From Octopus sinensis (taxonomy: Eukaryota), in the NCBI RefSeq assembly GCF_006345805.1, contig NC_043001.1:54870001-54934000 (forward strand): a DNA stretch of 64,000 nt, written 5' to 3'. Every line of letters begins with the position of its first letter. Position 1 is the stretch's first letter. This document shows, in pieces, positions 405 through 60,961 of this stretch. The position numbers were made by a program, and so were the translations under genes. The notes beneath the pieces are model-generated. The model saw only the letters and a list, made by a program, of their open reading frames with translations, made no database searches and was not told the origin of the DNA.

Positions 405-460
405 CTATATTGACTCAATTTCGGGATTAATCCGAGGGATTTTTCCCTCTTCAGTATATA
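405..460 (-). ncRNA. Degenerate type I hammerhead ribozyme
   Basis: Minus strand: tata CTGAAGA ggga..tccc GAAA ttgag TC aatata. Core and stem II intact; stem I has a core-proximal A.A mismatch next to the (TA)n; stem III weak. Confidence 0.5.
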
Positions 461-735
461 TATATATATATATATATATATATATATATATATATATATA
501 TATATATAGATATATATATATATATATAGATATATATATATATATATATCTATATATATATATATATATATAGTATATATATATATAGATAGATAGATAG
601 ATAGATATATAGATAGATAGATAGATAGATAGATATATAGATATATATATATATATGTATGTATGTATGTATGTATGTATGTATATGTATATGTATATAT
701 ATATATGTATGTATATATATGTATATGTATATATA
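455..735. repeat. Compound (TA)n/(TAGA)n/(TATG)n microsatellite
   Basis: Read directly; explains ORF 374..865. Confidence 0.97.
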
Positions 736-1088
736 TTTTGTAGATATATTTCTTGAGGTGGAAGAAATTATAGTCTAAAACATTTATTGTGTATATATTT
801 TTTCTCTCTTTCATAACAAAAACGTGTATGTTTGTATGCATGTATGTATACACACACACATACACACACGATTAGTAACAAATATCAGATTGAAACATGA
901 TGATTAACATTGCTCAAAAATCGATAACAACGTCCCCTCATATATTGACGTGTTCTTTCTCTTATAACCTCTGAAGCTCTTTCCCTGGTTCTACCACTTC
1001 ATTATAACAATGAAAGCGCCTGAGAAGTTCAATAAAGAACCCCTCATCATACACATTCGCTCTTTTCTTCACTCTTTTCTCTCCTTTT

Positions 1089-1213
1089 CCTCCTCCTCCT
1101 CCTTCTTCTTCTTCTTCTTCTTCTTCTTCTTCTTCTTCTTCTTCTTCTTCTTCTTCTTCTTCTTCTTCTTCTTCTTCTTCTTCTTCTTCTTCTTCTTCTT
1201 CTTCTTCTTCTCC
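1089..1213. repeat. (CCT)n(CTT)n trinucleotide microsatellite
   Basis: Long pure CTT run; explains the poly-E/poly-F ORFs. Confidence 0.97.
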
Positions 1214-1882
1214 TGCTTTTCTGTCTCTCACACTCAGCTCCCCTTCTCTTTGTTTATCTACCTCATCACTGTATCTAGCACGACCAATGAAAATCACTAG
1301 AATTAAGGCGGTAAATCGGTCAGACTGTTGAAAGTCTTGTCCGAGTGAACAAAGAAGAGAAATAACACAGAAAATATGTAAATTAGTCATAAATCGCGTG
1401 ATTAACAAAGGAACAACCCTTGTCGAGTTAATTTGGGTAGGATAGAATGGGAGTTGAGCATAAGGTGTGACGAAGGGGAAATGAGATACATCTATAAATT
1501 ATTGGTACATTAAATTGTGTGTGCACGTGTGTCCTAAGTTATACACAAGTCTAATCATGTATATCAGTAACTGCAACATTTCTCATCGATCTTTTTCACT
1601 CCCCGTCTCTCTCATTATATGCTTGGTGCTGAGTTATCTAATATGGTCCTGGTGTAGAAAGTCCCTCCATTTTTGTGGTGGAGATGGGGAGTGATTCTCG
1701 CATGTCATCACCCAGCTTAATACGAGCCCTGGTTCCTGGGTACCTTCAATAGAGTTTAACTCTTGCGTGTATTCGGATCAGACTCTTGGCTGGGAGGCGA
1801 CTATTGTGACATCAAATCTCAGCGATACCATTTACATTCCATTTGACGTCAATCCAACCAAGACCAAAATCATCACCTCTTA

Positions 1883-2317
1883 TTGGTTTCAAAGTTTGGC
1901 AATAAGGTCGGCAGTTTTGAGGAAGCGGGTACGTCGATTACATCGATCTCAATGTTCAACTGGTACTTATTTTAACGATCCCGGATGAATGAAAGGCAAA
2001 TTCGACCTCCTCGGCATTTGAACTCAGAGCGTAAAGTCGGAAGAAATGCCGCTAAACATTTTCTCCGGCTCGGTAACGATTCTGCCTGCATACCGCCTCA
2101 AACATCACCTCCTATTGGCTTTACATTTTGGCACAAGGTCTACAATTTTGAGGGAGGGGTAAGTGTGAGTACATCGGCCTCAGTTTGCAACTGGTACTTA
2201 CTTGATCGATCACGAAAGAATGAAAGGCAAAGTGGACTGCCTCAGCATTTGAACTCAGAATGTCAAGTCGGAAGAAATGTCTCTAAAAAAATTTTTCGGC
2301 GCGGTAACGATTCTACC
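1883..2317 (-). mobile_element. Two tandem diverged copies of tRNA-derived SINE family A
   Basis: Both carry tgaaaggcaaa...tttgaactcaga (B box GAGTTCAAAT on minus) and match 5059-5289. Confidence 0.85.
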
Positions 2318-2321
2318 AATT

Positions 2322-2700
2322 ATATATATACACACACAGAGAAACACTCACACATGCACAACAACACACTCACACACACACACACACACACAACACACAC
2401 ACACACACACACACACACACACACACACACACACGCACGCACACAGAAATATACACAGAGAAACACACATACACACAGAAATATACACAGAGAAACACAC
2501 ACATAAACACTCGCACACAGACAGACGCACAAACGCATAAAACACAAACACACACATACACACGCGTGCGCACACACGCACGCTCACACACACACACACG
2601 CACATATATATATATATATATATATACACACAGAAAAACACTTACACATGCACAACATTACACACACACACACACACGCACGCACACACACGCATAAACA
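2322..2700. repeat. (CA)n-rich compound microsatellite
   Basis: Read directly. Confidence 0.95.
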
Positions 2701-3116
2701 GATATGTAGCTTCTTTTTTCGAAGCAATTGCTGACAGAAATAGCTAACATAGAACTGGTAGACGGTTCCATACTGGACTTATAAATTTCGAAGCTCTATA
2801 ACCAATTGCATGTAAGCAGAAAGCGAAATTATCAAAATACAAATCTTATTATAATAGGCTTCATGTCCGTCTGTTCCCTTTCCACGGTCAAACCGCTGGA
2901 CCAATGGTTACGACGTTTTTAGGGATTACGAAGGAGGTAATCAAGAAGGTTTTTAGCGAAAAAAAATGTGAAAAAGTATGATTATTTAGTGGATATTGAA
3001 AGCAATTGTTCAGTTTACGGGTGTAAAAAAGTAAATAAAAATTAAAGGGCAGATAACTAATAAAAGAAGCAAAGCGAAGTAAGTTAACTTACTTTTAATC
3101 ATACTGCATACGCAGC

Positions 3117-58212: not shown

Positions 58213-58256
58213 GACCACTGATGCGGTCACAGGAGTGTGACGAAAGAACTTTGGCC
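58213..58256 (+). ncRNA. Degenerate minimal hammerhead ribozyme
   Basis: gacca CTGATG cg gtcac aggagt gtgac GAAA gaac TT tggcc; A9 lost, stems retained. Confidence 0.55.
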
Positions 58257-59679
58257 GAAATAAGATTAAGATTAATGTAAAAAATAAATATCACTGAAGC
58301 AAAATAACACCAAATATATAGTGCGTGTGTTTTTATTGGCTAAACTGGGAATATGACCATTCCGAAATATATATATATATATATATATATATATAATATA
58401 TATATATATATATATATATATATATAAAACAAAGTGAAGTTGTAAGGTACCGCACGAGTGGGAATATATATGAAAGAAGGTTTGAAAATGCAATTTTAAA
58501 AGATGTTTATTCACTTGACCGGTTTCACTTTTTTAGAAAAAGATTGTTAAACGTAACATGTAAAAGCTTTGTTGTCTTAAGTACTGGTTGTCACAAAATA
58601 TTACAATATATATATATACATTCTTTGATAATAATAAGAAAATGTTAAAAACAGTTTACAGGAAAAAATTGAGAAAATATTAAAAAGTTCATAAAAAATA
58701 TTAGGATTTCATTAAAAATCATGTTTGGTTGGAAGTATCTATATATATACACAGAAAATTATAAGTTCAAAAAGTCATATTTTGGTGGTATATATATACA
58801 CAGAAGGAGATATATTTAGGAGTTTACAAAGAATTTGAGATGGACTAACCTGTTTCAACATTTTATCGTAAAAGGGTATTTTCTATTTTAAGGCACAGTG
58901 TGGGAGGTTGTTTTGTGTGGGGGGAAGGAAGAGCAATGTGGAATTGAAAGGAATATATATATATATATATATATATATATATTATATATATATATATATA
59001 CATTCATATATAATCTTTGTGTGTGAACATATGTATGTAGATAAGTATGAGTATGCATGCATACTTATCTCGTCTATCACGGTTGGTGGTGGTGGGTCTT
59101 TGTTAAATGTGAAATATTTAATTATTCTGTCTTATCCAAAGCTATCGTAGTCTTTCATAATCTAGCAACAATCCTATCATTCTTTAATCCATGGCTAATC
59201 TGCAGCTCTCAAAGGCTGCTAGAGTACAAACCCATAAAACTCACAATAGTTATAGAAAAGTTGTTACGAAGGATTGTTGTTATTTAACCCAGCAACAATA
59301 AAAGCTACGTTCTCCTAGTTTTGATAAGAGACTGTCAAATTCTGTTAGTTTGAATGCGATATATTATATATCATAGGTGTATTTACAAATGAAGTTGTTT
59401 ATATATCTATATGTATGTATACTGCAGAATGACGTACAGAATTGAATAACATTTTGATAAAATGTTTTTGTTGTTTTTTACAATTTTGTTGCTGTGTAGT
59501 AAAATGAATTTTAATCAACTTTGAAACAATGAAAGGCAAAGTCGACCTCGGCAGAATTTAACTAAGCATTTTGCTTGGCGTGCTAACGATTTTGCCAGAT
59601 CGCCGCCTTAATGTACCTAACAACATAGTCAGTATCAGAATTTTTTTTAATAATAAGAGATAATCAAACATATCATCCT

Positions 59680-60090
59680 GCATGTATGTATGTATGAATG
59701 TGTATAGCATGTATGTGTGTGTATGTATGTATGTATGTATGTATGTGTGTATGTATGTGTGTATGTATGTATGCATGTGTCTATCTATCTATCTATCTAT
59801 CTATCTATCTATATATATATATATATATATATATAGATAGATAGATAGATAGATAGATAGATAGATAGATAGATAGATAGACACATGCATACATACATAC
59901 ATACCTACATACATACATACATACATATATGTTTGTATCTGTGTATGTATGTATGTATGTATGTATGTATGTATGTATGTATGTATGTATGTATGTATGT
60001 ATGTATGTATGTATGTATGTATGTATGTATGTATGTATGTATGTATGTATGTGTGTATGTATGTATGTATGTGTCTATCTACCTGTCTAT
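59680..60090. repeat. (TATG)/(TATC)/(TA)/(TAGA) microsatellite block
   Basis: Read directly. Confidence 0.97.
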
Positions 60091-60455
60091 TCATGAAGTG
60101 ATCTTGGAGGACCGTCGCCGAACAATTGACGAACTTGATATGACTGGTGTGTTCTAGAGCTCCTGCCAAAAAATTTTGAGTGAGGAATTGCAAATGAAAA
60201 AGAGTTGCCGCCGCTCGCTCACGGAAGATCAAAAGCAGTCAAGACTGCTGAATGCGTATCGTGAACTGAAAGAATAGTTGGAAGTTGATCCGGACCTTTT
60301 TCCGAAAGTCATCACTGGTGATGAAAGTTGGTGCTACGGAATTTTCAGATGTGGAAGAGGTGACGAAAAAAGCGACGGAGGCATTAAAAGGCATTACTTC
60401 GCAGAAGTTCCAGCGCTGCTTCGAACACTGGAAAACCCGTCTGGACCAATGCTCC
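60090..60455 (+). mobile_element. Internally deleted mariner transposase fragment
   Basis: EVILEDRRRTIDEL, LTEDQKQSR, KVITGDESWCYG (first catalytic D), FQRCFEHWKTRLDQC. Confidence 0.9.
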
Positions 60456-60647
60456 CACATATACTCCCACATATATCCATGCATACTCGGATATGTCCAA
60501 ACACTTACATATATGTGTACATGAATACATCACAATACACATACATATGAATGTACAAGTATATGAAATTATATACCCATCCACGCCTGAATACGACGGA
60601 AGGAAGGTTTCAGGTGAAATGTCTACATAAAGAAAGAACAGGTTAAG

Positions 60648-60732
60648 ATTCACTACAGCTGTTTCAAACGTGTGTTTTATTGTTTAATAAACTGAGTACA
60701 TCATGAAAATCAAAAGTCTCCTTCAGGTGAAT
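60648..60732 (-). ncRNA. Type I hammerhead ribozyme (A9G)
   Basis: attcac CTGAAGG agac...gttt GAAA cagctg TA gtgaat: 6-bp stem I, palindromic ACAGCTGT. Confidence 0.72.
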
Positions 60733-60873
60733 TAAAAATTAAAAATTTAGTTCAGAAAAAATATACCAAGATGTGGAATTTGTGTCGATCCTTTTGGCAA
60801 AATAAGAGGGTCAGACACAAATTCCACATCTCGATATTTTTTCCGAACCAAATTTTTAATTTTCAATTTCTAA

Positions 60874-60961
60874 TTTACCTGAAGAAGTCGCCTTTATTTC
60901 TTTTCGCGAAATAATCAGTTTATTCATCAATAAAACACGCGTCCGAGACAGCTGTAGTGAA
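60874..60961 (+). ncRNA. Type I hammerhead ribozyme (A14G)
   Basis: tttac CTGAAGA agtcgc...gcgtcc GAGA cagctg TA gtgaa. Confidence 0.68.

What the first reader, a model, noticed from the sequence alone, without database searches (positions are those of the whole stretch)
405..60961. About ten dispersed hammerhead ribozymes forming a Penelope/retrozyme-type self-cleaving RNA system
Seen in sequence: type I hammerhead folds at 405-460(-), 6147-6192(+), 28270-28375(-), 38208-38250(+), 38991-39035(-), 50040-50155(+), 58213-58256(+), 60648-60732(-) and 60874-60961(+), plus remnants. Stems I and II differ in sequence between copies but still pair, and stem III is repeatedly self-complementary (AGTACT, ACTGCAGT, ACAGCTGT, ACATATATGT). 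Established: Penelope-like elements carry minimal hammerheads in their pLTRs, and palindromic stem III variants cleave as dimers. Inference: many independent PLE or non-autonomous retrozyme families have seeded this genome at roughly one ribozyme per 6-7 kb, often inside (TA)n tracts. The class is known; I cannot tell whether these families are described.
Basis: partly seen in the sequence, partly recalled or inferred. Interest (0 to 1): 0.8.

Follow-up and report, generated by a model that had tools for sequence, protein, structure and literature searches.

The report
Octopus retrotransposon hammerheads, one core-mutated sweep
These are hammerhead-ribozyme motifs carried by ordinary Penelope-type retrotransposon families of an octopus genome, most copies here decayed; the one surprise is a young family that kept spreading after changing a core base likely needed for self-cleavage.

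Summary
All nine motifs are at the stated coordinates and exceed chance (8 descriptor hits against 0-2 in 50 shuffles). A tenth, 50927-50967, was missed. They are not one system. The nine sites are copies of eight separate high-copy repeat families (sites 8 and 9 share one) in an Octopus genome. Sites 3, 5 and 7 are 3' ends of Penelope-like elements (PLEs) with RT and GIY-YIG genes. Sites 2 and 4 are ~350-nt tandem units of retrozyme type. Sites 1, 6 and 8/9 have no gene link. Only sites 5 and 6 keep a full consensus core; 1, 2, 3, 8 and 9 are broken copies. Genome-wide density is about one per 28 kb (23 hits in 600 kb), not one per 6-7 kb. The class is known (Cervera 2014, 2020; Craig 2021). 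Two things I did not find in the papers read: U4C cores recur in three families, and the site-7 PLE shows successive waves from A9 (about 220 exact copies, 5.9% diverged) to C9 (2,395 copies; youngest subgroup 2% diverged). Cleavage was not tested.

The parts
245..456 (-). Site 1: copy of a short repeat family, cut two bases before the hammerhead core by a (TA)n tract; stem I mostly lost; family of unassigned origin
   Evidence: 0 of 19 loci with upstream PLE coding
6123..6408 (+). Site 2: partial monomer of a 352-nt tandem retrozyme-type unit; hammerhead 6147-6192 with A13G, predicted inactive
   Evidence: (arrays L198, L199)
28202..29863 (-). Site 3: decayed 3' part of a Hydra-type PLE (RT end, EN remnant, 3' UTR); hammerhead 28270-28375 with family-wide U4C plus copy-level G8A
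36534..38068 (+). Family A PLE (Neptune/Nematis-type linker): RT piece inverted at 36534-36963, thumb and GIY-YIG 37022-37918, 3' UTR cut just before its own U3-A8 minimal hammerhead
38069..38466 (+). Site 4: ~354-nt retrozyme-type unit (38182-38466) with an inverted partial copy (38069-38180), inserted in the family A 3' UTR; hammerhead 38208-38250 with U4C
38849..39569 (-). Site 5: 5'-truncated young PLE (last 29 matched GIY-YIG codons plus 3' UTR) ending at (TA)n; consensus-core hammerhead 38991-39035
47452..47772 (+). GIY-YIG remnant that looks PLE-derived (motif recalled; no Pfam hit); no hammerhead found behind it
49905..50290 (+). Site 6: copy of an old family (73-82% identity), often in inverted pairs; consensus-core hammerhead 50040-50155 with long loop II; no gene link found
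50585..51029 (+).
57669..58371 (+). Site 7: 3' end of the youngest PLE subfamily, ending at (TA)n; hammerhead 58212-58256 with A9C and U17
60624..60992 (.). Sites 8 and 9: inverted pair (74% identical arms) of one old family; hammerheads 60648-60732 (-, A9G) and 60874-60961 (+, A14G), predicted inactive

Best explanation
The motifs are type I hammerheads carried in the 3' ends of independent Penelope-like retrotransposon families and of ~350-nt tandem retrozyme-type units, scattered by separate insertions; in the source elements they likely cut the precursor RNA as dimers, and most copies in this window are decayed and predicted inactive. Shown: family membership, upstream RT/GIY-YIG genes for sites 3, 5 and 7, tandem units for sites 2 and 4, 5' truncations, inverted pairs and (TA)n ends. 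From the literature: palindromic stem III favours dimeric, weak cleavage, and retrozyme units give circular RNAs. Inferred: target-primed insertion by PLE proteins, trans-mobilisation of the tandem units, and that sites 1, 6 and 8/9 are old solo 3' ends or non-autonomous derivatives.
For: Every site has a family with hundreds to thousands of first-look candidates (332 to 3,581). PLE coding occurs in 16 of 19 site-5 and 15 of 19 site-7 loci. Pfam RVT_1 passes the cut-off for the family A frame; the GIY-YIG hits are below cut-off. CX2-5CxxC linkers occur in families A, 5 and 7. CxCX5C, CxxC and xLH motifs occur in family 3, as defined for the Hydra clade (PMC8557442 section 11). Direct 352/354-nt tandems match the 350-390-bp mussel retrozymes (PMC7229834 section 14). 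Double-sided stem changes appear between subfamilies: family A stem II GU..AC (9 copies) against GC..GC (8), and site-4 stem III in L327. Exact core patterns far exceed their reversed controls: 2,084 vs 1, 1,122 vs 115, 2,510 vs 3. Palindromic stem III, an extra base after A9, U3-A8 cores and opposite-strand pairs are described for PLE hammerheads (PMC4209133).
Against: No cleavage or RNA-end data exist. Rfam finds no hammerhead family in 15 short stretches or 6 loci. Families 1 and 8/9 show no PLE gene upstream (0 of 19, 0 of 14); family 6 has 1 of 18, and that hit belongs to family A. For site 3 the protein search alone hits only 2 of 19 loci with the family's own RT; that link rests on DNA collinearity. 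Within single families most change is decay, not covariation. The young site-7 subfamily spread with an off-consensus core.
Confidence: 0.88

Rival explanations
1. The hammerheads are passengers. PLEs move without needing cleavage, so cores drift (A9C, U4C) with no cost to the element.
For: Site-7 family: C9 has 2,395 exact copies against 341 non-C (65 A, 34 T, 1 G in the first 100 listed). Younger waves carry C9. No second hammerhead was found in the near-complete copy L196. Craig 2021 raise parasitism of PLEs by hammerheads and show that Naiads thrive without one.
Against: Cores and stems stay conserved in most families: 17 of 18 site-5 copies are intact, family A keeps the U3-A8 pair, and compensatory stem changes occur. 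U4C is a tolerated natural viroid variant (PMC3088659). The effect of A9C was not measured.
Confidence: 0.35
2. The motifs are a host-domesticated self-cleaving RNA system acting on transcripts of this locus.
For: The window is about 3-fold richer than the genome sample (8 against 2.45 expected, p about 0.004).
Against: The window was chosen for this feature and the descriptor was tuned on it. The copies belong to unrelated families, lie on both strands, and 5 of the 9 carry copy-level damage. One insertion cuts off another element's hammerhead.
Confidence: 0.04
3. Chance matches in AT-rich, microsatellite-rich DNA.
For: One descriptor hit (26505-26537) is probably chance; shuffles give up to 2 hits. 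Part of site 1's stem I is microsatellite.
Against: Shuffle controls, family-level conservation and genome counts against reversed controls.
Confidence: 0.01

Closest known systems
Minimal hammerheads of metazoan PLE pLTRs (Cervera & de la Pena 2014, PMC4209133; first two of four parts and one supplement part read)
   Same: Type I fold, palindromic stem III, extra base after A9, U3-A8 variant, U17, opposite-strand pairs, mostly solo truncated copies, thousands per genome.
   Different: All rows of their alignment that I saw have U4 and A9 (their descriptor demands them); here U4C and A9C are family or subfamily states. No octopus hit in the one supplement file searched.
Neptune/Nematis-type EN+ PLEs (definitions from PMC8557442, passages)
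   Same: RT then CX2-5CxxC linker then GIY-YIG; (TA)n targets; inverted 5'-truncated copies (families A, 5, 7).
   Different: Clade not resolved, as no reference tree was built. The site-7 RT has a long insert between motifs A and B (read by eye) and an A9C hammerhead.
Hydra-clade PLEs, including Hydra-1_Obim (PMC8557442 section 11, Files S1/S2)
   Same: CxCX5C linker, CxxC and xLH around the last E/N, 3' hammerhead (family 3).
   Different: The listed Hydra-1_oBim hammerhead differs in all stems and has U4, so family 3 is likely a separate family.
Non-LTR retrozymes of animals, e.g. Mytilus 350-390 bp (PMC7229834; bioRxiv 10.64898/2026.07.22.740005, first part and passages)
   Same: 352/354-nt head-to-tail units, one type I hammerhead each, GC 39-45%, more stably folded than shuffles, many solo monomers (sites 2, 4).
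   Different: Circular RNA not shown here. Units often carry an inverted partial copy, as PLEs do. Site-4 subfamilies carry U4C.

Membership tests
Type I hammerhead ribozyme | Core CUGANGA, GAAA, UH with three stems | tested here: met
   Full at sites 5 and 6. In family alignments 4 of 21 to 17 of 18 copies pass when U4C and U3-A8 are allowed. Not met by the window copies at sites 1, 2, 3, 7, 8, 9.
Type I hammerhead ribozyme | Match to Rfam hammerhead models | tested here: not met
   0 of 15 stretches at E<=10; 0 of 6 loci at gathering score; none in the 150 of 228 rows shown.
Type I hammerhead ribozyme | Compensatory stem changes | tested here: inconclusive
   Seen between subfamilies by eye; no formal covariation statistic run.
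Type I hammerhead ribozyme | Self-cleavage after UH | not testable with these tools
   No assay; only contigs were available.
EN+ Penelope-like element | RT plus C-terminal GIY-YIG upstream of the hammerhead | tested here: met
   Families 5, 7, 3 and A. Family 10: 1 of 19 loci with EN. Not met for 1, 6, 8/9 within 1.6 kb.
EN+ Penelope-like element | Partial tandem or inverted copies, 5' truncation | tested here: met
   Inverted arms 98-99% alike in L195-L197; inversions at 36534-36963 and 60624-60992.
Neptune versus Nematis clade | Placement in an RT tree | not tested
   Only the linker motif was checked; no reference set was used.
Hydra clade | CxCX5C linker, CxxC/CxH motifs, no CCHH | tested here: met
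   Read by eye in L117 and L118 translations. RWK and DKT motifs not seen (5' part not held).
Non-LTR retrozyme | Tandem 150-450-bp non-coding units, one type I hammerhead each, GC<50% | tested here: met
   L198, L199, L200; 0 of 19 site-2 loci with PLE coding.
Non-LTR retrozyme | Expressed as circular RNA | not testable with these tools
   The unit junction also occurs in a large run of unknown kind and in genomic tandems.

The most novel reading that the evidence does not exclude
An autonomous PLE lineage lost hammerhead catalysis (A9C) and then out-amplified its ribozyme-intact ancestor about tenfold in two later waves. That would be a natural experiment showing self-cleavage is dispensable, or even a brake, for PLE retrotransposition. 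With recurrent U4C cores, it would also mean a large part of about 100,000 octopus hammerheads is invisible to consensus descriptors.
Probability: 0.35. Interest if true: 0.65.

Novelty: new member of a known kind. Interest (0 to 1): 0.4.

Why it matters
The class is known, and these add undescribed octopus families. What the hammerhead does for a PLE is stated to be unclear (PMC8557442). The site-7 family offers three age-ordered natural variants of one ribozyme in one element, which makes that question testable with a simple cleavage assay. The estimate of about 36 motifs per Mb (22-55) suggests octopus is rich in them.

Tried and rejected
Rfam: only microsatellite-driven miRNA hits; no hammerhead. 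The repeat finder was swamped by microsatellites. Site 4 as the pLTR of the adjacent family A gene: rejected, because family A relatives continue into a different U3-A8 hammerhead (27 of 29 loci) and site 4 is an insertion. C17U as damage: rejected, because U17 is common in published PLE hammerheads. A C9-G12 mispairing trap: pair probability only 0.06-0.08. Homology between the site-2 and site-4 units: no BLAST hit. Expression: no RNA holder listed. Contigs of four guessed-RNA runs cover the site-7 stretch, and three of them plus one run of unknown kind cover the site-2 unit; they show no ends, strand or level, and the 352-nt back-joint is not evidence of circles. The first subfamily tree was distorted by truncated ends and was redone. 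Literature on A9C: 0 papers; nothing relevant. Lunse 2017 on dimeric PLE hammerheads was not held and is seen only through a review passage; it may already cover U4C or A9 variants. Earlier scan findings: none.
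Full report
Setting. The window is G000:C5:54870001-54934000 of a 2.72-Gb genome, AT-rich and dense in microsatellites. A retrotransposon protein from this genome matches proteins named Octopus vulgaris at 89-99% identity, so the host is an octopus.

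Observation. All nine motifs are at the given coordinates. A relaxed descriptor, tuned after I had seen the sites, finds 8 against 0-2 in 50 shuffles: sites 3-8, a new site at 50927-50967 and one probable chance hit. Sites 1, 2 and 9 fail because the copies are broken. Rfam reports no hammerhead (0 of 15 stretches; none in the 150 of 228 rows shown).

Density. Sixty 10-kb stretches at fixed round positions gave 23 hits in 599.8 kb against 0-4 in 10 shuffles. That is about 36 per Mb (22-55), one per 28 kb, or roughly 100,000 in the genome (60,000-150,000). The window is about three times richer than this average. Exact patterns confirm large families: 2,084, 1,122 and 2,510 matches against 1, 115 and 3 for reversed controls.

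Autonomous families. Site 5 is the last 720 nt of a young PLE. The 39 other best matches are 97-98% identical, 16 of 19 loci hold PLE coding, and 17 of 18 copies keep an intact core. Site 7 is the 3' end of another PLE (15 of 19 loci). L196 holds RT (579 aa) and EN (374 aa) frames that meet at one frameshift. Both families have a CX2-5CxxC linker, which defines Neptune/Nematis types (PMC8557442); I did not resolve the clade. Site 3 runs collinearly into a decayed RT-EN frame with CxCX5C and CxxC motifs, the Hydra signature. Its hammerhead differs from that listed for Hydra-1_oBim.

Non-coding families. Sites 2 and 4 belong to 352- and 354-nt head-to-tail units without long frames. Folded as circles they reach -100 and -117 kcal/mol against shuffled means of -73 and -91. 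This matches animal non-LTR retrozymes. Site 4 has inserted into the 3' UTR of a further PLE (family A, 36534-38068) just before that element's own U3-A8 hammerhead. Families 1, 6 and 8/9 show no own gene within 1.6 kb and stay unassigned. The new site 10 has GIY-YIG coding upstream in 1 of 19 relatives.

Mechanism. Shown: independent insertions with 5' truncation, inverted pairs and (TA)n ends. From the literature: PLE hammerheads with palindromic stem III cleave weakly and as dimers, and may release unit-length RNA for circularisation (PMC4209133; review PMC6765202). Inferred: the same held for the source elements here, and single decayed copies in the window do nothing. Cleavage is untested.

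Core variants. U4C is the main state in family 3 (74 of the first 100 of 124 listed, hand count), common in family 4 (44 of the first 100 of 277) and, with U3-A8, the main state in family 10 (11 of 20). It makes a CpG, so decay would tend to remove it; I infer it was present in the source elements. U4C lowers activity in vitro but supports viroid infection (PMC3088659). All rows I saw in two published PLE lists have U4 and A9, but their descriptors demand this.

The site-7 sweep. A 23-letter pattern finds 2,395 copies with C at position 9 and 341 with another base (65 A, 34 T, 1 G in the first 100, hand count), so about 220 A9. U17 marks 33 of the first 100 of 2,265 listed, all with C9. I sampled 50 copies by position plus the window copy. 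With the search pattern, position 17 and CpG columns masked, median within-group divergence is 5.9% for A9/C17 (n=17), 4.8% for C9/C17 (n=15) and about 2% for C9/U17 (n=6). T9/C17 (n=9, likely CpG decay of C9) gives about 4%. Four copies of rare classes were left out of these groups. Linked diagnostic bases separate A9 from C9 (12:3 against 1:18, and 14:1 against 3:18). Caveats: 160-290 sites per pair, non-independent distances, weak tree resolution, and exact matching undercounts older copies. L195-L197 each carry two C9/U17 motifs in inverted arms, and no other hammerhead was found in L196. That A9 is needed for catalysis is recalled (A9-G12 sheared pair) and backed only by general statements on core mutants; two searches found no A9C data. 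U17 is ordinary in PLE hammerheads.

Novelty. The class is known. Searches for octopus with Penelope and hammerhead or ribozyme gave 5 and 4 papers. Craig 2021 lists octopus Naiad and Hydra-1 families. The giant squid paper counts 235 Rfam hammerhead-1 hits. I found none describing these families. Lunse 2017 and repeat libraries could not be seen and may cover them.

Papers seen. PMC4209133: parts 1-2 of 4, one supplement part. PMC8557442: passages, section 11, supplement rows. PMC7229834: passages, section 14. PMC3088659: passages, section 8. bioRxiv 2026.07.22.740005: part 1, passages. PMC9901934, PMC6765202, PMC6962438, PMC6155905: passages.

Verdict. Real motifs, new members of a known kind, interest 0.4. 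The A9C sweep is the part worth a bench test.

Noticed in passing
   Followed up: yes
L278 (G000:C1:9312133 and 9312428) and one search list: A further large hammerhead family not seen in the window (short stem II, ACAGCTGT stem III; most of the rows listed of 2,084 exact matches), with a 295-nt direct repeat in L278.
   Followed up: partly
L191 2104-4518 (G000:C1): 804-aa open RT-GIY-YIG frame of family A, followed by its U3-A8 hammerhead; 18,221 first-look candidates for the EN part.
   Followed up: partly
window 27411-27827 (-), 32703-33002 (-): Mariner/Mos1 transposase HTH remnants (Pfam HTH_48, E 1e-20 and 0.006).
   Followed up: no
window 7651-7942: 137-bp tandem duplication (98% match) that also forms a long hairpin.
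   Followed up: no
window 5120-5305, 5868-6038, 22368-22541, 23632-24001, 35136-35321, 51233-51406: Many copies of one ~180-nt dispersed repeat, likely a SINE (recalled).
   Followed up: no
L295, L338, L342, L314: U4C cores in further families in the position-fixed sample, including an inverted pair in L342.
   Followed up: no
window 26540-26971 (+): 143-aa open frame with no Pfam hit; could be a host exon or a repeat remnant.
   Followed up: no
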